In this document: one piece after another, positions 14,786-43,780 of the stretch | Numbering within the stretch: position 1 is the stretch's first letter | Layout of the letters: every line of letters begins with the position of its first letter | From: Deltaproteobacteria bacterium GWB2_55_19 | Lineage (GTDB): Bacteria; Desulfobacterota; GWC2-55-46 | Reading direction: 5' to 3' | NCBI GenBank assembly: GCA_001797465.1 | Contig: MGPQ01000002.1 | Location: 32,410-96,409 of the forward strand | DNA: 64,000 nt | Notes under the pieces: model-generated | Seen by the model: only the letters and a program-made list of their open reading frames with translations | What the model was told of the DNA's origin: nothing | Databases searched by the model: none | Translations under genes and position numbers: made by a program

Positions 14786-14968
14786 AGCAAGAGATTATAC
14801 CAATAATTCGGCTTGAGTACACTATTTTCAAGAGCGGGGAAGGGCGGGATATGGATCAAGGGCCGGACATACGGCTGTCACTGCCCGGGTGCGGCTACGG
14901 CAACCAGGCCTTTGCGTCCGGCGCTTACTTGAACCGGACGGGTTCCGGCAGAGGCGTATTCAAGGCCC

Positions 14969-15247
14969 TTAGCGCTTATTCGAACCTCTCCCGCTCCCCG
15001 GCCATCTCCTCGACCTCTGGAGGGAGTGTATCCTCTCGTCCATCCTGCCTACGATAGAGAAGAGGTTCCGAGCCTCCTCCTCGTAGGTTAAGAGCCGCAA
15101 TTCCGGCCCCGCATGGGTATAGCCCTTGCCGTCCTTCTTGCCGCACTTGCAGACCTGGCAGTCGCAGTCGCATTCCTTTCCGGGCTTCTTGCCGTCTTCG
15201 GAGCCGCCCGCGACCATATCTATTACTATCCTGTTTTTCGGTTCCAT
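14969..15247 (-). CDS. Small cysteine-cluster protein (metallothionein-like CDCDCQVCKC motif)
   Basis: Strong RBS AGGAGG 6 nt upstream of ATG 15247. Residues 25-35 are ECDCDCQVCKC flanked by Lys/Gly. Lies 32 nt downstream of the HAD-like gene on the same strand. Confidence 0.5.
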   Translation of the reverse strand: MEPKNRIVIDMVAGGSEDGKKPGKECDCDCQVCKCGKKDGKGYTHAGPELRLLTYEEEARNLFSIVGRMDERIHSLQRSRRWPGSGRGSNKR

Positions 15248-15278
15248 GATACGCCTCCTTTCAAGGTTGGAGAAGCGT

Positions 15279-15638
15279 TCAGTCCCAGTAAAAACTCCTG
15301 CCTGAAGATATCAGTTCCGCGACCAGTATGGGGTCGGCCGGCATCATACCCGAGGTGTGCATGGGCACCTTATAGACCCTCCCCGGCATCCAGCCCTCCG
15401 GCTCGTCGTCTACGCAGACGTCAGGCCTGAAAGGTATGGCGCCCTTTCTGTATACCTCGCCATCTATCCCGGTCTGCCTCAAGACCTCCCTGTAATAATC
15501 GACGGGCCCGCTCGTCCAGAAGCTTACATCTATGCCTGATGCCCTTAAACTACTTATCGTCTCTTTTATGCCCGGCCTTAAGGCCATATCGAGCGCGCCA
15601 AAGACCGTGCCGTTTAAATCGAAGATGATATGCATCAA
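15279..15638 (-). CDS. Small HAD-superfamily hydrolase-like protein
   Basis: Motif I HIIFDLNGTV at the N-terminus. A TATAAT -10 element and AAGGGGG RBS lie upstream. Confidence 0.5.
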   Translation of the reverse strand: MMHIIFDLNGTVFGALDMALRPGIKETISSLRASGIDVSFWTSGPVDYYREVLRQTGIDGEVYRKGAIPFRPDVCVDDEPEGWMPGRVYKVPMHTSGMMPADPILVAELISSGRSFYWD

Positions 15639-15782
15639 TGCCCCCTTTACACAGCATAGATTATACGGGAGGGCCGATTAAAAGGAGATTAGAGCGAAAA
15701 GTGACATGAATATAGAAGGTTATACTGACAGCACTGACAGCAAGGCGGGCGGATTAAAAGGAATGGCAAGGGCGCAAGGCCA

Positions 15783-15848: not shown

Positions 15849-17264
15849 TCAGGCAACCGCGTCCCCGGTCTCCGGGTTTTTTGGCAGATAGACGTTGAAC
15901 GTGGTGCCGCTCCCTAACCGGCTCTTGACCTCGATCTTTCCGCCGTGGGCCTCTACGATGGTCCTTACGATGGAGAGCCCGAGCCCGCTGCCGACGGTAA
16001 TGCCCCTGCTCGCGTCGACCCTGTAGAACCTGTCGAAAATCTTCTCCTGTTCTCCCTCAGGGATACCTATTCCCGTGTCGGAGACCGAGATGAGCGCGCC
16101 GCCATTCGATTCATTGACGCTTATCTCGACCCTGCCCTGGGGCTTGTTGTACTTGAGCGCGTTCTCGACGATATTCGTGAAGACCTCGGTCAACCCTTCC
16201 CTGTCGCCGCTTATGAACACATTCGTCCCTTCGAGCTTTATGCCTATGCCCTTGCTTGCGGCCGAGTGCTCTATGAGCTTCAATACGTCTTTCATGAGGT
16301 CCATGAGGTCCATCCTCACGGGCTTGAACTGGATGGTCTTGTTATCCAGCCTCGATATGACGAGTATCCTGTTTATGATGTCGCACATGCGGTTTACGGT
16401 ATCGCCTATCTTCCTTATCGCCTCCTTGTAGTCGCCCGGTCCCCTCTCGCGCCCAAGCGTCACGTCGCAGAAGCTCTTTATGATGGAGGTAGGGGTCCGG
16501 AGCTCGTGCGAAGCGTCGGATAAGAACTGCTTCTGGCGCGAGAACGACTCCTCAAGCCTGCCGAGCATGGTGTTGAAGGATGCGGCGAGCGGCTTCAACT
16601 CAATTGCGACCCCCCTCTCCTCGACCCTCTCAGCGAGGTTTTTCTCGGTGATCTGTCCGATCTTCCGGGTAAAGGCCCGTATGGGCTTCAAGGCCCATCC
16701 TGTCATGAGGAATACCCCTATGCCGCAGATGACGAAGACCACCGGGAAGATGGCGAGTACAACGTTCCTGAACGAGCTCAAGACCTCCTGGGTGTCCTCG
16801 AGCGAGTCGGCGGCCTGGAAGGTGAGCCTTCCGACCGAGAACCGGAACGACTGGCTTATGAGCCTCATGTGCTCGTTGCCGGGCCCGATTATGGTCCTGA
16901 ACTCGCCCTGCTCGGACCCCGTGTAGACCGGGAGCGTCTCATCGGCGAGCGCGAGCGACGGGGAGCGCACAAGGATATTGCCGTCCTCGGAGATCAGCTG
17001 GTAATAGTGGCCGGAGAGCTTCTCGGCATACACGCCTGTCACCGCCGCGGCGAGCTCCTGCAGTTCGCTCTCAAGCTGTCCCTGGGCCTCTTCAATGGCC
17101 ATGAGGTTCGCTATCGTGTCGACCTCGGACTGGAGGTGCTCGTCGGCCAGGTGGATCGTCACCTCGCCGAGCTTGTAGTAGAGGAATAGCTCTATGCCCG
17201 CGAAGAATATCGAGAAGACGACAAGGAACCATACTACTATCCGGAGCTTTATCGAGTTGAACAT
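15849..17264 (-). CDS. Sensor histidine kinase (CusS/CopS-like; TM-periplasmic-TM-HAMP-HisKA-HATPase)
   Basis: H-box SHELRTP; N, G1, G2 boxes (ENALKYN, DTGIGI, GSGLGLS); two TM segments. Confidence 0.85.
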   Translation of the reverse strand: MFNSIKLRIVVWFLVVFSIFFAGIELFLYYKLGEVTIHLADEHLQSEVDTIANLMAIEEAQGQLESELQELAAAVTGVYAEKLSGHYYQLISEDGNILVRSPSLALADETLPVYTGSEQGEFRTIIGPGNEHMRLISQSFRFSVGRLTFQAADSLEDTQEVLSSFRNVVLAIFPVVFVICGIGVFLMTGWALKPIRAFTRKIGQITEKNLAERVEERGVAIELKPLAASFNTMLGRLEESFSRQKQFLSDASHELRTPTSIIKSFCDVTLGRERGPGDYKEAIRKIGDTVNRMCDIINRILVISRLDNKTIQFKPVRMDLMDLMKDVLKLIEHSAASKGIGIKLEGTNVFISGDREGLTEVFTNIVENALKYNKPQGRVEISVNESNGGALISVSDTGIGIPEGEQEKIFDRFYRVDASRGITVGSGLGLSIVRTIVEAHGGKIEVKSRLGSGTTFNVYLPKNPETGDAVA

Positions 17265-17269
17265 CCCCC

Positions 17270-17941
<672 letters not shown>

Positions 17942-17968: not shown

Positions 17969-18640
17969 TCATTCCTTCGGAAAGTACTTCTTTCCGTGCA
18001 CCATCGATGACAAGAGCCCTGTCTTCTCCGAGACCTCGTGTACGACGAGGCCGACGAGGTGCGCGAAGATGAAAAAAATGATATACAGGAAACCCGCCTC
18101 GTGGACCTCTTCGAGCGCGCCGGAGACCGCCTCTACCACCTCCTCGCCCATGCCGGCGAAAAGACCGGAGAGCGGCCCTGTCTTGAGCTCGGCCCCTGAG
18201 AGGACGAGCCCCGTCACACACTGGCTCGCGAGCGCGACGAATAAGACGACATAGAATATCGAGGCGAGCGGGTCGTGCCCTATCGCGCGAGCGGGACTCC
18301 CCTTAAGGCCGCTCAAGTACCACCTTATGTCCCGGACTATCCCCGCCCTCTGCTCGCGCCTTACGGGGACGATATCCGCCCACCTCGCGTAAGAGTTCCC
18401 GGCAAAGGCCCAGATGACGCGTAGCGAAAATGTGGCGATGAACGCGAACCCGACATAGGCGTGCGCGAAGTTGAGCTGGCGCCTTAACGGCTTTTCCACC
18501 CCGAGCAGTTCCATGCCTTCTTTTCCGAGCATGAGGAGCGCGAGCGTTATGACGAGCAGGGCGTTTATCCAGTGGAGAACGCGGGTCTGCCAGTCCCACG
18601 CGTCGACCATGATGCGCTCTTTTTCTTCTCTCCCCACCAT
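17969..18640 (-). CDS. Cytochrome b561 / Ni-Fe-hydrogenase b-type cytochrome family membrane protein
   Basis: 4 TM helices with a conserved His pattern (HWINALLV, HAYVGF, HLVGLVVHE). Confidence 0.65.
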   Translation of the reverse strand: MVGREEKERIMVDAWDWQTRVLHWINALLVITLALLMLGKEGMELLGVEKPLRRQLNFAHAYVGFAFIATFSLRVIWAFAGNSYARWADIVPVRREQRAGIVRDIRWYLSGLKGSPARAIGHDPLASIFYVVLFVALASQCVTGLVLSGAELKTGPLSGLFAGMGEEVVEAVSGALEEVHEAGFLYIIFFIFAHLVGLVVHEVSEKTGLLSSMVHGKKYFPKE

Positions 18641-18774
18641 CAGGTTCCTTTCACGGGATAACGGCCTCGTACATATTCATCTCCCCTCAGGCCCCTGGAG
18701 ATCCTATCACATTCAGATTAAAAACTGATTAGACAGGCTGTAATTCGCGTATAAAACAAGGTAGTTACCGTATT

Positions 18775-19848
18775 TCAGTCCAGGTGCTGTTCATAGATGT
18801 CATTGAAGTCCGCGGCTATTTTTCTGAACATGTCGAGCAGGGCCGGGTCGAAATGCGATGGAAGCGTCCTGCCGTCGCCATCGAGTATGATGCTTAAAAC
18901 CTCCTTGTGTGAGAGGGCCGGCTTGTAGGGGCGCCTGGACCTGAGGGCGTCGTACTGGTCGACGAGCATCACTATCCTGCCTTCAAGCGGCGCCTCGGCC
19001 CCTTTGAGGCCCCTCGGGTATCCTGTGCCGTCCCACCTCTCGTGGTGGGTAAGCGCGACTGATGCCGCTATCTGGATGTTCTCGTGCGGGGAGTCGATGA
19101 GCATCTTGTTGCCTATGGAGGTGTGGGTCTTCATCACCTCGAACTCCTCGGTGGTGAGCCTGCCGGGTTTAAGGAGTATGCTGTCCGGGATGCCGATCTT
19201 CCCGATGTCGTGCATTGGGGACGCGAATGTGATGTTCTCGACGAACTCCGCGCCCTTTCCGAGCGCCTCGGCGAGCCTCCCGGAGTATATCCCGATCCTT
19301 TTGATGTGCGCCCCGGTGTCGGTGTCCCTGTACTCGGCGACGGCGGTCATCCTGTGGACTATCTCCCTGGATATGGATTTTACCATGCTGAGGGCGTTGG
19401 CGAGCTCGTGCGTCCTCTTTTTCACGTCCTCCTCGAGCTTCAACTTGTAGTTCTTCTCTATCTGGAGGAGCCTCCCGTAGTTGACCGCCTTTTTTACGGC
19501 ATGGAGGAGGTACTCGGGCTTATAGGGCTTTATAATGAAGTCGAAGGCCCCCTGCTTTACGGCGTTTACCGCCATGTCGAGCTCCGCGTACGCGGTCATG
19601 AGTATTACCGGGACCTCCTTGTTCATGGAGTGTATCTTTTCGAGGAGGTCTATGCCGGACATCCCCGGCATCTTTACGTCGGTCAGGACCGCGTCGAACC
19701 TCCCGAGCGCGAACTTTTTTACCGCCTCAGCCGGGTCCGTAAACGGGGAGACCGAGAACCCGTATCCCGAAAGGAGGAGAGAAGTGCTGTCGAGGACGAA
19801 TGCGTTGTCGTCGACGACAAGTATGGCGCCCTCCTGTATCTCGTTCAT
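18775..19848 (-). CDS. Response regulator with HD-GYP phosphodiesterase domain (RpfG-like)
   Basis: N-terminal receiver (ILVVDDN...D), then an HD domain (HDIGKIGIP) and the [11 protein letters not shown] motif. Confidence 0.85.
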
Positions 19849-22800
19849 CTGTCTATCACCTCCCTGACTTTTTTGAGGAACTCGCTCGGCGAGACAGGCT
19901 TGGAGATGAAATCCCGCGAGCCCGCGAGCCCCTTGGACCTCACTAAATCCGAGGGATATCCGCTGGTGAAGATGACCTTCATATCCGGCTTTACTGACTT
20001 TATCATCTCATAGACCTCGTTCCCGGCCTTTCTCGGCATGACTATGTCGAGGATGAGGAGGTCGATTGAGTCCTTGTGCTCCATGAACTTCGAATAAGCG
20101 TCCTCGCCGTCGACCGCCGCGATGACCCTGTAGCCGAACTCCTGGAGGATGGTCTTTGCGATGTTCCTGACGTCCTCTTCGTCTTCGGCAAGGAGGACGG
20201 TCTCGGAGCCGCCCCGGACGAGGAACTTTTCAGGCTCGGCGTGCAGCAAGGCCTCTTCGGCGAGCGGAAGGTATATCCTGAAGGTCGTCCCCGCGCCGGG
20301 ATTGCTCGCGACGTCTATGAAGCCGTTATGCTGTTTCACTATGCCGTAGACCATCGAGAGCCCGAGCCCAGTGCCCTTGCCTACCCCCTTGGTCGTGAAA
20401 AACGGCTCGAAGACCTTCTTCAATATCTCTTCGGACATGCCCTCGCCGGTGTCCGAGAACACTATCACGGCGTGTCTGCCGGGCGAGCCGTAGCCGTGGG
20501 CGTCCACGAAGTCGCGCCCGATAACGGCGGCTTCGGTAGAGATGGCGATCCTCCCGCCCCCGGGCATCGCGTCTCTCGCGTTCGTAGCCAGGTTCATGAG
20601 GACATGCTCTATCTGGGTCGAGTCGGCCTTGACTACGAGCGGCTCGGCGCAGAGCGAGGCCGTAAGCTCTATGTCCTCGCCTATGAGCCGCTTGAATATC
20701 TTCTCTACGCGCCTTACGAGTTCGTTAATATCCGTGGGCTGGGGGTTCAATACCTGTTTTCTGCTGAAGGCGAGAAGCCCCTGTGTGAGGCTTGCCGCCT
20801 TCTCGGATAAGGTCAGTATGTGGTCCGAGTAGCTCCTGACGAGGTCGTCGTCACCCTTTTTCATCAGAAGGAGGTTCCCGTACCCGATGAGGGCCGTCAG
20901 GATGTTGTTGAAGTCGTGGGCGATGCCTCCGGCCAACTGGCCCACGGCTTCCATCTTCTGCGCCTGCCTGAACTGGTCCTCTATGTTTTTCCTCTCGGTT
21001 ATGTCCTCGACGATGCCGTCGAGGAAGACCTCGTTGTCCTGCGCCTTCCTGACGGCGGTGACGGAGGCCCAGAACCTCCTGCCCTTCCGGGTCTTAAGCT
21101 CCGCCTCCTCTCCCCTGACGAAACCGTCCCTGTCGAGCTTCTTCAAAAACTCCTCCCTGCCGGCCGGGTCACAGTAAAAGGAGCTCACTGTCATCTCCTG
21201 GAGTTCCTCTCTTGATGAGGCCTCGAACATCTCCGCGAGCGCGCGGTTGACCTCGATGAACCGGGCGTCATCACCCCATGTCGTCCTGAAGATGCCTACG
21301 GTCAGGTTATTGGCGAGATCCTCGTATTTGAGCTTCAACTCCCTGCGTGCCTCGTCGGCGGTCTTGGCCTTTCTCTCGGATTCGATAGATTCCATTGCGT
21401 AGGAGATGTCGGCCGCGAGGGCTTCGAGCAGAGCGACGTCCTCCTCGTTGAAAGAACCCTGGACCCCGGAGTAAAGGCTCATCGCGCCCATGGGTTTTCC
21501 GCCCCTCCAGAGCGGGATCGCGGCCAGGGACCCGAAGCGGCACTCAAGCGCCCTCTCCTTCCATTGGGCCATGTCGGGGTCATTGCCAATGTCGTTGCAG
21601 ACCACGGGCCTCCCCTCGCTGACCGCGGTCCCGGCCGGGCACCGGCCCGCAGGCTCCTCCGACACGCTTATGTCCATAGTAGACAGATATTCGGCGCACG
21701 CGCCGCTTGAGGCGACGGGCTTTACCGATTTTGTCCCATCATCGACGACCCCTATCCACGCGAAGAGGAACCCGCCCTCCTCTACCGCTATCCTGCACGC
21801 CTCCTCGCATAGCTTCTCAGTGTCGCGGACGCGCACTATCGCCTCGTTTATCCGGCTAAGCACCGCGTAGAGCCGGTTGAGCCTCTCGATCCTCTCCTCG
21901 GCGAGCTTTTTCTCCGTTATGTCCGAAAAGACCCCGTCGGTGTATTTGACGCCGTCCCTCTCGTACGCGGCGGTGGCCCTGTCGTTCACCCATATCCATC
22001 GCCCGTCCTTCGTCCGCATCCTGTAGACCTCGTCAAAGACCTTGTTCATGGAGAAGAAGTCGGAATAGGCCCTTCTGACCATTTCAATGTCGTCGGGGTG
22101 GACGCTTGAGAACCATATCCGCGGGTCGGCGTATATCTCCTCAGGGGTATAGCCCATTATTCCCATTACATTCGCGCTCGCGAATACGACTTGGCCGTCC
22201 TCGGCGGCCGTCCAGACGACGTCCGGTATGTTCGAGATAAGGGTCCTGTGCTTCTCCTCGCTCTCGCGGAGGAGGTCGGCCCGCGTCTTTATCTCCAGCG
22301 ACATCCTGTTGAAGGACTCCGAGAGAACGCCGATCTCGTCCCTTGTCTCTACGGGTACCAAAGCGCCGTAGCCGCCCTCGGCGATCCTGGAGGTGGCCGA
22401 GACGATGGTCACAAGCCGCCTTATGACCACCCTGTAAAGAAAGACGAAGAAGGCGCCTATGAGGGCCGCGGATATGAGCCCCCCGACGAGGGCGTCCCTA
22501 AACATCTCGTCTATGGGCGCGAGGACCTCGGCTGAGTCGGCCTCAGCCACGAGCGCCCACTGGAGCATGGGCAGGCACATCGACGCCCCGGCGACCTCGA
22601 CGCCCCTGTAATTGCCGTAGAATGCGGCGACCTCCTTCGCCCCCCGGAGGCACTCGTCTACCGGCAGTGTATTGACCTTTGTATTAAGGATAGAATCCTT
22701 CACAAAGGCCGACGCTGTTATCATGAGCCTGTCCCTGTTGACGATGTAGACCTCCATCGTCTCCCTCTTGCCCTTTGACCCGGGTATGCCCCCTAAGTCC

Positions 22801-23399
22801 CTGTTGAACTCGCCCTTAAGAAGCGCGGTAAGGCCAGAGAGGCGAACAAAGTTGACGAGGGCCCCGATAGTCCTGCCGCCCTTGTCCCTTTCAAGGATAG
22901 GCACGGCGATGATGATGATGCCGGACGCATCTCCGAGGTCATGCTCCGTAATAAACGGTCCCTTTGTCCCTGCCATAAAAAAAGGCTCAGTTGAGACATC
23001 CGTCCCGGCGTAATTCTGGTCAGTGGAAGCGACTATCCTCCCGTCGAGGGAGACGACCGCGATACGCGCGAGCGATGGGTCGAGGACGAGCTTCTCCCTG
23101 TCCATGTACTCGCCGAGCCTCCTCGACGCCCCCTTGTCCCCGGAGGCGAACCTCTTCATCTCGGCCCTTATATGGCCGTCGGTAGAAAAGTCCTGGGCCC
23201 GCCTCTTCGACATCTCGAGGTATTGATAGACCTGCCCCTCATAGGCCTCCGCGATGACGGTGAGGTCGTCGAGGACGCTCTTTTTCAGGTGCTCCTTGTT
23301 TTTATTGTAGCTGAATACGAATGTGATGAGTATGGGGAGGATTATGAGGATAAGGGCCAAAAGGGCCTTTGTAAGGAGTGAGGAGCCGGAAAATTTCAT
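19845..23399 (-). CDS. Multi-domain hybrid sensor histidine kinase (periplasmic sensor-HAMP-PAS-GAF-PAS-HisKA-HATPase-REC)
   Basis: 1184 aa. H-box [10 protein letters not shown]-boxes DTGEGM/GLGLSMV, C-terminal receiver ([10 protein letters not shown]...LDIVMP). A 4-nt overlap with the downstream HD-GYP gene. Confidence 0.85.
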
Positions 23400-43146: not shown

Positions 43147-43320
43147 CTACCCGCCCTTTTCCAGGTTCTTCACCATCTCAGTAAAGTAGTCGTCCTGAAT
43201 GGTCGTCGAATCCGCGCACTTCGGGCACTTGATAACAGCGCCTTTTTTGAGGTCCTTAGCCTTTTTCTTGAAAACAGTCTGACACGATGGGCAGGTTATG
43301 TCTATTGCGAGCTCAGCCAT
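43147..43320 (-). CDS. Small zinc-ribbon protein (57 aa); not in the ORF track
   Basis: GGAGAT RBS; MAELAIDITCPSCQTVFKKKAKDLKKGAVIKCPKCADSTTIQ... (CPxC...CPKC). Confidence 0.55.
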   Translation of the reverse strand: MAELAIDITCPSCQTVFKKKAKDLKKGAVIKCPKCADSTTIQDDYFTEMVKNLEKGG

Positions 43321-43577: not shown

Positions 43578-43780
43578 CTCGCCGCCTCCTCATCTGCTTT
43601 TTTGTCCATCTCCTGCCTTTCATTATAAACAATGGGGATTAAAGGATTATTAGGCGGCGGGGGTGGTTTTTCAGGGTATTCGAACAAGGCCCCTGTCTTT
43701 AATAACCGAATGATTTAAAAGACTATTTTTGCAGATAACGGGACGCCGGAGCGGGTATGCAGTAGGGCGCGCCGATTTGG

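What the first reader, a model, noticed from the sequence alone, without database searches (positions are those of the whole stretch)
14969..15247. Small protein with a metallothionein-like CDCDCQVCKC cluster
A 92-aa ORF has a near-perfect SD (AGGAGG-6-ATG). It encodes ...GGSEDGKKPGKECDCDCQVCKCGKKDGKGYTH..., five Cys in nine residues embedded in Gly/Lys. This density is typical of metallothioneins and other metal-sequestering peptides and is unlike Fe-S or zinc-ribbon spacing. It sits directly downstream of a HAD-like gene and near a heavy-metal-type two-component system, in a genome that also methylates Hg. It is a candidate thiolate-cluster metal buffer.
Basis: partly seen in the sequence, partly recalled or inferred. 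Interest (0 to 1): 0.6.

Follow-up and report, generated by a model that had tools for sequence, protein, structure and literature searches.

The report
Small regulated protein with portable cysteine motif
The ORF is a real, conserved small gene whose ten-residue cysteine motif behaves like a self-contained metal-binding unit. It is switched on together with a tiny phosphatase-like enzyme by a neighbouring stress-sensing two-component system, and it is a new lineage-restricted family rather than a classical metallothionein.

Summary
A 92-aa ORF lies on the minus strand at 14969-15247, with AGGAGG six bases before the ATG, and encodes CDCDCQVCKC (five Cys in ten residues, not nine).

The gene is real:
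- dN/dS is 0.12-0.23 against orthologs.
- Only this frame is open in ten orthologs.
- GenBank annotates it as a hypothetical protein.

It belongs to a rare family of about 30 sequence clusters, all from groundwater or sediment Desulfobacterota-type MAGs. No Pfam, NCBIfam, PDB or metallothionein match was found.

The conserved core is [C/H]xCxCxxCxC. Four Cys are near-invariant, and the first position splits 15 Cys to 15 His, which is typical of a metal ligand.

In some relatives the motif is a separate 31-40-aa peptide with its own Shine-Dalgarno site. It follows a Cys-less version of the rest of the protein, so the motif is an autonomous module.

The gene follows a capless mini-HAD gene. A direct-repeat box (YTAAYC-N5-YTAATC, then TATAAT) precedes this operon and also the adjacent cytochrome b561/regulator/kinase operon, in every related locus.

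My best reading is an inducible, low-capacity thiolate metal-binding or metal-switch module. A high-capacity metallothionein, or a link to Hg, is not supported. Function is inferred, not shown.

The parts
14969..15247 (-). Small-protein gene (92 aa, stop included). Modules are A (N-terminal strand), B (Cys motif) and C1 (C-terminal helix plus RWPGSGR tail).
   Evidence: ORF and translation. Orthologs at 57-97% identity and more distant family members. dN/dS 0.12-0.23. Only this frame is open in all orthologs. Annotated as hypothetical protein A2X99_04155 / OGP25460.1.
15254..15259 (-). Shine-Dalgarno AGGAGG, 6 nt before the ATG
   Evidence: Read directly from the sequence.
15203..15232 (-). 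Module A: residues 6-15, RIVIDMVAGG. The family consensus is (R/K)V(I/V)VIDLxG(E/D), a predicted strand-like N-terminal 'handle'.
   Evidence: Present in every fused and Cys-less family protein, and absent only from the stand-alone Cys peptides.
15143..15172 (-). Module B: residues 26-35, CDCDCQVCKC. The family motif is [C/H]xCxCxxCxC, usually followed by G-K-K.
   Evidence: C30, C33 and C35 are invariant and C28 is present in 31 of 34 sequences. The first position is C in 15, H in 15 and other in 4. In L008, L014, L015, L016 and L021 it exists as a separate 31-40-aa ORF with its own SD or translational coupling. For those peptides pN < pS.
15014..15085 (-). Module C1: residues 55-78, the predicted helix EEEARNLFSIVGRMDERIHSLQRS, followed by the RRWPGSGR tail
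   Evidence: This is the only element AF2 predicts, at block-mean pLDDT about 71. It is conserved in the close subfamily and also in a Cys-less paralog in L019.
15279..15635 (-). Capless mini-HAD gene (118 aa from the ATG at 15635), first gene of the operon, 31 nt upstream of the small gene
   Evidence: Weak Pfam HAD hits. Invariant residues are D6, T10 (motif I, D-L-x-G-T), T41, K64 and D76-D77, while the D+2 position varies (N/A/M/S). The AF2 model has pLDDT 90.8. The listed Foldseek hits are predominantly HAD phosphatases, including capless ones (2obb, MDP-1 1u7p, HisB-N 2fpr).
15660..15692 (-). Promoter of the HAD/small-gene operon: direct repeat CTAATC-N5-TTAATC (15676-15692), a 10-nt spacer, then TATAAT (15660-15665)
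   Evidence: The pattern is found 4 times in the window against 0.15 expected. The same architecture precedes the HAD gene in all 13 related loci examined.
15849..17264 (-). Sensor histidine kinase (471 aa)
   Evidence: Pfam HAMP, HisKA and HATPase_c. Best NCBIfam model is TIGR01386 heavy-metal sensor kinase, 267 bits against a cut-off of 292.55.
17270..17941 (-). OmpR-family response regulator (223 aa)
   Evidence: Pfam Response_reg and Trans_reg_C. Best NCBIfam model is TIGR01387, 259.8 bits against 279.2. The next best are HprR, RppA and CusR.
17969..18640 (-). Cytochrome b561-family membrane protein, first gene of the two-component operon
   Evidence: PF01292, E = 5e-27. Gene order is conserved in all related loci.
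18701..18732 (-). Second copy of the box, CTAATC-N5-TTAATC (18716-18732), then 9 nt and TAGGAT, upstream of cytochrome b561/RR/HK
   Evidence: Conserved upstream of the cytochrome b561 gene in related loci.
43622..43653 (-). Third copy of the box, CTAATAATCCTTTAATC, then 9 nt and TATAAT. A probable further regulon promoter upstream of tiny ORFs and a 57-aa zinc-ribbon gene (43147-43320, -).
   Evidence: Conservation in relatives was not tested.

Best explanation
The ORF encodes a genuine small cytoplasmic protein with three modules: an N-terminal strand (A), a central [C/H]xCxCxxCxC unit (B) and a C-terminal helix (C1). Module B is an autonomous binding unit for soft metals, with four near-invariant thiolates plus a fifth Cys or His ligand.

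By analogy with other CxC-rich sites, it would hold one divalent ion (Zn, Cd or Hg class) or about two Cu(I) per chain, possibly forming a small cluster by dimerisation. This is a low-capacity binder or metal-triggered folding switch, not a bulk store.

The gene is co-transcribed with a capless mini-HAD phosphotransferase. Their promoter lacks a recognisable -35 element and instead carries a direct-repeat box for an OmpR-type regulator. The same box sits before the adjacent cytochrome b561/regulator/kinase operon. When that CusRS/HprRS-like system fires, on an envelope metal or oxidant signal, the cell makes the HAD enzyme and the thiolate module together.

Shown: the gene is real; the motif is conserved; the first position alternates Cys/His; the architecture is modular (fused or split); the box is shared; the partner has a HAD fold.

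Inferred: metal binding, the identity of the metal, the stoichiometry, which regulator binds the box, and any functional coupling to the HAD enzyme.
For: Gene reality: purifying selection, only the sense frame open, strong SD.

Family: about 30 clusters, all carrying the motif.

Ligand signature: the first motif position is 15 Cys, 15 His and 4 other, while C30/C33/C35 are invariant.

Autonomy of the motif: it occurs as a separate 31-40-aa ORF with AAGGAGG-type SD or TAATG coupling, downstream of a Cys-less A-C protein (L008, L014, L015) or directly after the HAD gene (L016, L021). For these peptides pN < pS.

Regulation: the box-plus-TATAAT geometry lies before both operons in every locus examined, and gives 4 hits against 0.15 expected in the window.

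Regulator family: the best models are the heavy-metal TCS subfamilies.

Precedents: CopY binds Zn(II) or two Cu(I) through a C-terminal CxCxxxCxC motif; MymT is a 4.9-kDa Cu(I) binder; metallothioneins fold only on metal binding (PMC7558416). The last point fits the low AF2 confidence over the motif.
Against: There is no experimental or expression evidence. No homology to any known metal-binding family was found. Four to five ligands is few for sequestration. The kinase and regulator fall below the curated heavy-metal cut-offs, the kinase's sensor domain has no detectable match to any solved chain, and this regulator family also includes the oxidant sensor HprRS (PMC9302797). One related genome (L018) has lost the small gene and kept the HAD gene, and another (L006/L007) shows the reverse, so the pair is not obligatory. 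All family members come from one narrow lineage, so synteny carries little independent weight.
Confidence: 0.5

Rival explanations
1. Thiol redox module in an oxidant or electrophile stress regulon. The two-component system would be HprRS-like and sense oxidants, perhaps through the co-encoded cytochrome b561. The Cys motif would act as a sacrificial or switchable thiol/disulfide unit, or as a zinc-redox switch like Hsp33 or RsrA, rather than as a metal store.
For: The regulator's second-best model is HprR (E = 1.6e-65). HprR and CusR share a box, and HprRS controls msrPQ, which includes a haem-b membrane protein (PMC9302797). A cytochrome b561 gene heads the TCS operon. Conserved neighbours include thiol peroxidase, pirin, an aldo-keto reductase and, in L008, a nitroreductase. 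The sensor domain is poor in His and Met and has no detectable match to any solved chain.
Against: The Cys-to-His alternation at the first motif position fits metal ligation, not disulfide chemistry. The redox-type neighbours do not carry the box, and their synteny is within one lineage only. Hsp33 and RsrA precedents are recalled from memory and were not tested here.
Confidence: 0.2
2. Zinc-stabilised accessory subunit of the mini-HAD. The enzyme has no cap domain. The small protein, or the stand-alone peptide, would fold around one structural Zn and dock on the enzyme as a cap supplied in trans that sets substrate access. HisB-N and GmhB-type HADs carry a Cys/His zinc loop in cis (recalled from memory).
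For: The HAD gene and the Cys motif co-occur in nearly all related loci examined, in one operon and always in that order, whatever the architecture of the rest. The HAD is capless, and HisB-N (2fpr) is among the fold matches. Four invariant Cys is the number expected for one structural zinc.
Against: No complex prediction was possible. The tight CxCxxCxC spacing is unusual for a mononuclear structural site. L018 keeps the HAD without any Cys partner, and L006/L007 keep the Cys protein with only a remnant of the HAD gene.
Confidence: 0.15
3. One reading: a metallothionein-type thiolate-cluster buffer for Zn, Cd, Cu or Hg, functionally linked to the organism's mercury chemistry.
For: The motif has MT-like local composition (Cys-Lys-Gly) and contains the CxCxxCxC spacing of SmtA. 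hgcAB is in the window. The stand-alone peptides are 14-16% Cys.
Against: No MT family model matches, and hhalign against SmtA gives 2.75% probability. There are only 4-5 ligands per chain, and 5% Cys in the 92-aa protein. hgcAB is 13 kb away and has no shared box.
Confidence: 0.08
4. RiPP precursor: the Cys-rich stretch is a core peptide that an enzyme modifies.
For: The stand-alone forms are 31-40-aa peptides with a Cys-rich C-terminal half.
Against: No radical-SAM, MNIO/DUF692, cyclodehydratase or protease gene is present in any of the loci. In most genomes the motif lies in the middle of a protein with a conserved C-terminal module.
Confidence: 0.03
5. Not a gene: a chance ORF, or the shadow of an opposite-strand gene.
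For: Overlapping ORFs exist on the other strand (15113-15430, +).
Against: dN/dS is 0.12-0.23. Only the sense frame is open in ten orthologs. The SD is conserved and the family is conserved.
Confidence: 0.01

Closest known systems
CopY C-terminal metal switch (CxCx3-4CxC) of Gram-positive copper repressors
   Same: Both have four closely spaced Cys in two CxC pairs. In CopY this site holds one Zn(II) or two Cu(I) and acts as a metal-exchange switch (PMC7558416). The number of invariant ligands is similar, and both are low-capacity sites.
   Different: The family here has no winged-helix DNA-binding domain. The inner spacing is two residues rather than three or four, and there is an extra Cys/His ligand. 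No sequence homology was detected. The motif here can be a free-standing peptide.
SmtA/BmtA bacterial metallothionein (Pfam PF02069; PDB 1JJD)
   Same: SmtA's N-terminal KCACEPCLC has the same CxCxxCxC spacing, and hhalign aligns exactly this stretch. Both are small cytoplasmic proteins.
   Different: hhalign gives 2.75% probability, and there is no Pfam hit at E<=10. By my own count of the verified 1JJD sequence, SmtA has nine Cys, and from memory it forms a Zn4 cluster around a zinc-finger fold. The family here has only 4-5 ligands plus unrelated flanking modules.
MymT of Mycobacterium tuberculosis and other mini copper metallothioneins
   Same: These are very small, previously unannotated Cys-rich peptides induced under metal stress. 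MymT is 4.9 kDa and binds up to six Cu(I) (PMC7558416). The stand-alone 31-40-aa peptides here are of that size class.
   Different: No sequence relationship was seen: the exhaustive profile search returned only the family itself. The family here has fewer Cys. Control is by a two-component system rather than a cytoplasmic repressor (the latter from memory). MymT was not directly compared.
CusRS/HprRS regulons of E. coli
   Same: An OmpR-family regulator and kinase of the same NCBIfam subfamily. The box has a TAAT core with 11-bp half-site spacing, and a haem-b membrane protein is among the controlled genes (PMC9302797).
   Different: The box here is a direct repeat (YTAAYC-N5-YTAATC) and not the inverted CATTACAAAATTGTAATG. 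The targets are a cytochrome b561, a mini-HAD and a Cys-motif protein, not an efflux pump or MsrPQ. Scores are below the curated cut-offs.

Membership tests
Bacterial metallothionein SmtA/BmtA (Pfam PF02069) | Significant match to the family HMM or profile | tested here: not met
   No Pfam family at E<=1 for the 92-aa protein, nor at E<=10 for the motif region and three stand-alone peptides. hhalign against the verified SmtA sequence gives 2.75% probability over 13 columns.
Bacterial metallothionein SmtA/BmtA (Pfam PF02069) | About nine Cys plus His ligands forming a Zn4 cluster around a zinc-finger fold | tested here: not met
   There are only 4-6 Cys per protein, with four near-invariant. 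AF2 gives no fold for the motif region.
Metallothionein in the broad compositional sense | Small size with high Cys content (roughly 15-30%) | tested here: inconclusive
   The window protein has 5 Cys in 92 aa (5%), which does not meet the criterion. The stand-alone peptides of relatives have 5 Cys in 31-36 aa (14-16%), which is borderline.
Metallothionein in the broad compositional sense | Binds several metal ions in a metal-thiolate cluster | not testable with these tools
   This needs metal titration, ESI-MS or EXAFS on purified protein.
Metallothionein in the broad compositional sense | Metal-inducible expression | not testable with these tools
   The evidence is indirect only: a conserved regulator box shared with a heavy-metal-type TCS operon. 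The signal is unknown.
CopY-type CxCx(3-4)CxC metal-switch repressors | Winged-helix DNA-binding domain N-terminal to the Cys motif | tested here: not met
   No Pfam or NCBIfam domain was found. The N-terminal part is a short strand-like segment.
HAD superfamily (the operon partner, 15279-15635) | Motifs I-IV (nucleophile Asp, Thr/Ser, Lys, acidic pair) on a Rossmannoid fold | tested here: met
   D6/T10, T41, K64 and D76-D77 are invariant. The AF2 model has pLDDT 90.8 and its listed fold matches are predominantly HAD phosphatases. The general acid at D+2 is NOT conserved (N/A/M/S). Pfam scores are below the gathering threshold.
Heavy-metal two-component systems (NCBIfam TIGR01386 / TIGR01387) | Score at or above the curated cut-off | tested here: not met
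   267 against 292.55 bits for the kinase and 259.8 against 279.2 bits for the regulator. These are the best-scoring models, but both are below the cut-offs.
Heavy-metal two-component systems (NCBIfam TIGR01386 / TIGR01387) | Metal-binding periplasmic sensor domain like that of CusS | tested here: inconclusive
   Sequence search of the sensor domain against all PDB chains gave no hit better than E = 0.6 and none to a kinase sensor; whether a CusS sensor structure is in that library was assumed, not checked. Only two His are conserved in the domain. Fold-level similarity was not tested.
RiPP precursor peptides | A maturation enzyme (radical SAM, MNIO, YcaO, lanthionine synthetase or similar) encoded nearby | tested here: not met
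   None is present among the called genes and Pfam annotations of seven fully annotated related loci, nor in the window neighbourhood.

The most novel reading that the evidence does not exclude
The locus encodes a previously undescribed modular small-protein system. It has a common N-terminal 'handle' (A), a portable metal-thiolate unit (B) that can be fused, inserted or free-standing, and two alternative C-terminal effectors (C1, C2). The system would work with a capless HAD phosphotransferase that lacks the general acid, as a metal-gated (or redox-gated) phospho-switch. For example, it could provide feedback on the very two-component system that induces it.
Probability: 0.1. Interest if true: 0.8.

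Novelty: new variant of a known kind. Interest (0 to 1): 0.5.

Why it matters
Bacterial cytoplasmic thiolate metal binders are few: SmtA/BmtA, MymT and the Csp proteins. They are hard to find because they are short and compositionally odd.

This locus offers a new, unrelated family with unusually clear internal evidence, all from sequence alone:
- a ligand-type Cys/His swap;
- the same motif occurring fused or as a 31-aa stand-alone peptide;
- a phylogenetically footprinted promoter that ties it to a two-component system.

If metal binding is confirmed, it would add a minimal and easily synthesised metal-binding peptide. It would also be an example of a periplasm-sensing system controlling a cytoplasmic thiolate module in anaerobic, Hg-methylating groundwater bacteria. 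If instead the module partners the mini-HAD, it would be a new way of regulating or capping a HAD enzyme.

Tried and rejected
- Pfam, NCBIfam and PADLOC scans of the small protein, the motif region, the stand-alone peptides and the Cys-less relatives gave no hits.
- PDB sequence searches with the family profile and with the motif region found nothing relevant.
- AF2 on the small protein with a 7-sequence alignment gave pLDDT 58 with only a C-terminal helix. The model is not usable for fold search.
- hhalign against SmtA was not significant.
With the stand-alone peptides it found only two more loci of the same lineage in JGI metagenomes.
- A PDB sequence search with the kinase sensor domain, looking for CusS-like ligands, found no kinase sensor match.
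- Literature searches for this motif or family found nothing specific.
- A double-glycine leader reading of 'MVAGG' was considered and rejected, because GG is not conserved in relatives.
- A look-up of my mis-trimmed coordinates (14969-15244) failed through my own error. The annotated protein was recovered as a cluster member.
- Contexts of the 57-aa zinc-ribbon gene were all near-identical genomes, so the third box could not be footprinted.

Full report
OBSERVATION

The ORF is at 14969-15247 on the minus strand and encodes 92 aa. AGGAGG lies at 15254-15259 (-), six bases before the ATG. The motif CDCDCQVCKC is residues 26-35, so it is five Cys in ten residues, not nine.

It is the only 10-residue window with at least five Cys in any of the six frames of the window. 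Markov-shuffled sequences give 0.05 such windows per 64 kb. Composition alone is therefore only mildly unusual, and the weight of the case rests on conservation.

IS IT A GENE?

Yes, on four grounds:
- Orthologs from related metagenome-assembled genomes give dN/dS of 0.23, 0.12 and 0.18.
- In ten orthologous genes only the sense frame is free of stops, and each antisense frame is interrupted in several of them.
- The SD is strong.
- The protein is annotated as hypothetical protein A2X99_04155 (OGP25460.1) of 'Deltaproteobacteria bacterium GWB2_55_19'. This appears to be the source genome, because the neighbouring HAD-like protein is 100% identical to A2X99_04160.

THE FAMILY

A word-indexed search found four relatives. 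An exhaustive HMMER profile search of 1.8 billion representatives found only four proteins at E <= 0.001. A second profile search with a broader alignment brought the total to about 30 clusters at 90% identity.

All of them come from groundwater or sediment MAGs labelled Deltaproteobacteria or Thermodesulfobacteriota. Nothing outside this family was hit, and no metallothionein was hit. There is no Pfam, NCBIfam, PADLOC or PDB match.

THE MOTIF

Across 34 sequences the core is [C/H]xCxCxxCxC:
- The last three Cys are invariant.
- The second Cys is present in 31 of 34 sequences. The three exceptions have CxxCxxCxC instead.
- The first position is Cys in 15, His in 15 and another residue in 4.

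A clean Cys/His alternation at one position of an otherwise invariant Cys set is the classical signature of a metal ligand. It is hard to explain by disulfide chemistry. The motif is usually followed by G-K-K and preceded by K/E, giving a metallothionein-like local composition.

The spacing CxCxxCxC is the same as KCACEPCLC in SmtA. I verified my recalled SmtA sequence against PDB 1JJD. hhalign aligns exactly these columns, but with 2.75% probability. The resemblance is therefore one of spacing, not of family.

MODULAR ARCHITECTURE (the most informative result)

I used the upstream HAD-like protein as bait in GTDB genomes. I then scanned all six frames of every fetched locus for the motif. The motif follows the HAD-like gene in every related locus except L018. 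Its packaging differs between loci.

(i) Fused A-B-C proteins, as in the window. These have an N-terminal strand-like segment with consensus (R/K)V(I/V)VIDLxG(E/D), then the Cys motif, then one of two unrelated C-terminal modules:
- C1 is a helix plus RWPG tail, as in the window.
- C2 is LLxxPxAYxELWxKW, as in L009 and L019.

(ii) Split systems (L008, L014, L015). A 68-78-aa protein carries A and C2 with no Cys motif. It is followed by a separate 31-40-aa ORF carrying the motif, for example MKNKPMPASAKTEKDCDCSCKVCKCKGRDKG. Each peptide has its own AAGGAGG-type SD, or a TAATG overlap with the preceding gene.

(iii) L016 and L021 have only the peptide directly after the HAD gene.

(iv) L019 has two genes, A-B-C2 and a Cys-less A-C1.

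The stand-alone peptides show pN below pS in all pairs, and some are called as genes in public data (P0042). So the Cys motif is an autonomous, selectable unit that has been shuffled relative to the other modules. This argues against a buried structural site of a larger fold, and for a unit that does something on its own.

OPERON AND REGULATION

The small gene starts 31 nt after a 118-aa gene at 15279-15635 (-). That protein has the four HAD motifs, with invariant D6, T10, T41, K64 and D76-D77. The general-acid position D+2 is variable (N/A/M/S). AF2 models it confidently at pLDDT 90.8. Its listed fold matches are predominantly HAD phosphatases, including capless ones: BT_0820 (2obb), MDP-1 (1u7p) and HisB-N (2fpr).

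Upstream of this gene every related locus examined has the same promoter layout: YTAAYC-N5-YTAATC, then 9-10 nt, then TATAAT. A direct repeat with 11-bp periodicity replacing the -35 element is the usual layout of promoters activated by OmpR/PhoB-type regulators (general knowledge).

The same box, with the same geometry, lies upstream of the adjacent cytochrome b561/response-regulator/histidine-kinase operon, in the window (18716-18732) and in the relatives. The strict pattern occurs four times in the window against 0.15 expected. A third copy with proper -10 spacing is at 43637-43653.

The simplest reading is an autoregulated two-component system whose regulon includes the HAD/Cys-motif operon. 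In L006/L007 the HAD gene has been deleted down to its last codons, and the box now drives the Cys-motif gene directly.

WHAT IS THE SIGNAL?

The best NCBIfam models for the kinase and the regulator are the heavy-metal subfamilies TIGR01386 and TIGR01387. Both fall just below the curated cut-offs, and HprR, RppA and CusR follow.

In E. coli this family includes both a copper/silver sensor (CusRS) and an oxidant sensor (HprRS). The two share one box, CATTACAAAATTGTAATG, and HprRS controls a haem-b membrane protein (PMC9302797). The box found here shares the TAAT core and the 11-bp spacing, but it is direct, not inverted.

The sensor domain has only two conserved His and no sequence match to a solved kinase sensor domain. 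I cannot tell metal from oxidant.

MECHANISM

I commit to module B being a soft-metal thiolate site, with probability about 0.5-0.6 for metal binding as such. With four invariant Cys and a fifth Cys/His ligand, the capacity is about one divalent ion or two Cu(I) per chain. The nearest chemical precedent is the CxCxxxCxC site of CopY, which holds Zn(II) or two Cu(I) (PMC7558416).

This makes it a low-capacity binder, hand-off point or folding switch rather than a store. Metallothioneins fold only on metal binding (PMC7558416), which fits the low AF2 confidence across the motif.

How the A and C modules and the mini-HAD use this site is unknown. The near-constant HAD-plus-motif pairing keeps open the idea that the metal-loaded module docks on the capless enzyme.

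The specific claim of a thiolate-cluster metal buffer is not supported by ligand number or by family membership. The Hg connection is only co-residence in the same genome, 13 kb apart.

NOVELTY AND SCORE

This is a new, lineage-restricted protein family with no detectable relative among known metal-binding proteins. Functionally it is most likely a variant of a known kind, namely small Cys-rich metal-binding modules.

The modular fused/split architecture and the clean regulon footprint make it an attractive and cheap experimental target. Nothing about its function is demonstrated, and the family is rare. Interest is 0.5.

Noticed in passing
window 43622-43653 (-), with downstream ORFs to 43147: A third copy of the regulator box (CTAATAATCCTTTAATC, then 9 nt and TATAAT). 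It precedes an 11-aa ORF, a 31-aa hydrophobic ORF (MRRRQVTLSTVYDMATISLAIVIVAGMSALS, called as a gene on one public contig) and a 57-aa CxxC...CxxC zinc-ribbon gene (weak DUF7836). It may be a further member of the same regulon.
   Followed up: partly
window 492-2148 (+): hgcA (782-1858, NVWCAAGK motif) and hgcB (1855-2148, ferredoxin-like with C-terminal ACC) are present. They are preceded by a 96-aa ORF that looks AbrB/SpoVT-like by eye (no domain search run), with an N-terminal Cys-rich stretch (CCAPDAKGAC) that overlaps the hgcA start. It could be a thiol-based regulator of hgcAB.
   Followed up: partly
L001 10297-11037 (-), L002 7416-8189 (-), L006 710-1483 (-), L008 5254-6027 (-), L010 6576-7361 (-), L021 3117-3890 (-); the corresponding window gap is 14786-14968: A conserved 246-261-aa protein lies antisense between the small gene and the aldo-keto reductase in most relatives. 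It has a PD-(D/E)xK-like signature (GGDYD...VEAKSSPPK) and no Pfam, NCBIfam or PADLOC match. It is absent from the window and from its closest relative L011, and L009 has a DUF2238 gene in its place.
   Followed up: partly
window 15279-15635 (-): The mini-HAD family has an invariant Cys two residues before the motif IV Asp pair (C74-V-D-D). It also has an invariant C-terminal F-(Y/F)-W-D tail that AF2 leaves disordered, and it lacks the D+2 general acid. It may hold a phospho-aspartate rather than turn substrate over quickly.
   Followed up: partly
L019 4395-4864 (+): This genome carries two small genes after the HAD gene: one with handle, Cys motif and C2 tail, and a second with handle and C1 helix but no Cys. 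C1 and C2 are therefore distinct effectors that can coexist.
   Followed up: partly
P0041 (103 aa, Logan contig): An end-to-end fusion of the Cys-less A-C2 protein with the stand-alone Cys peptide. It is either a real read-through fusion or a frameshift in a short assembly.
   Followed up: no
L002 9194-11054 (-): A NotI-like restriction enzyme and a D12-class methyltransferase are inserted between the aldo-keto reductase and pirin genes in one relative only.
   Followed up: no
window 18775-23399 (-): A response-regulator/HD-GYP-type protein (357 aa) and a very large multi-PAS/GAF hybrid kinase (1184 aa) lie immediately upstream of the cytochrome b561 operon. They are syntenic in relatives.
   Followed up: no
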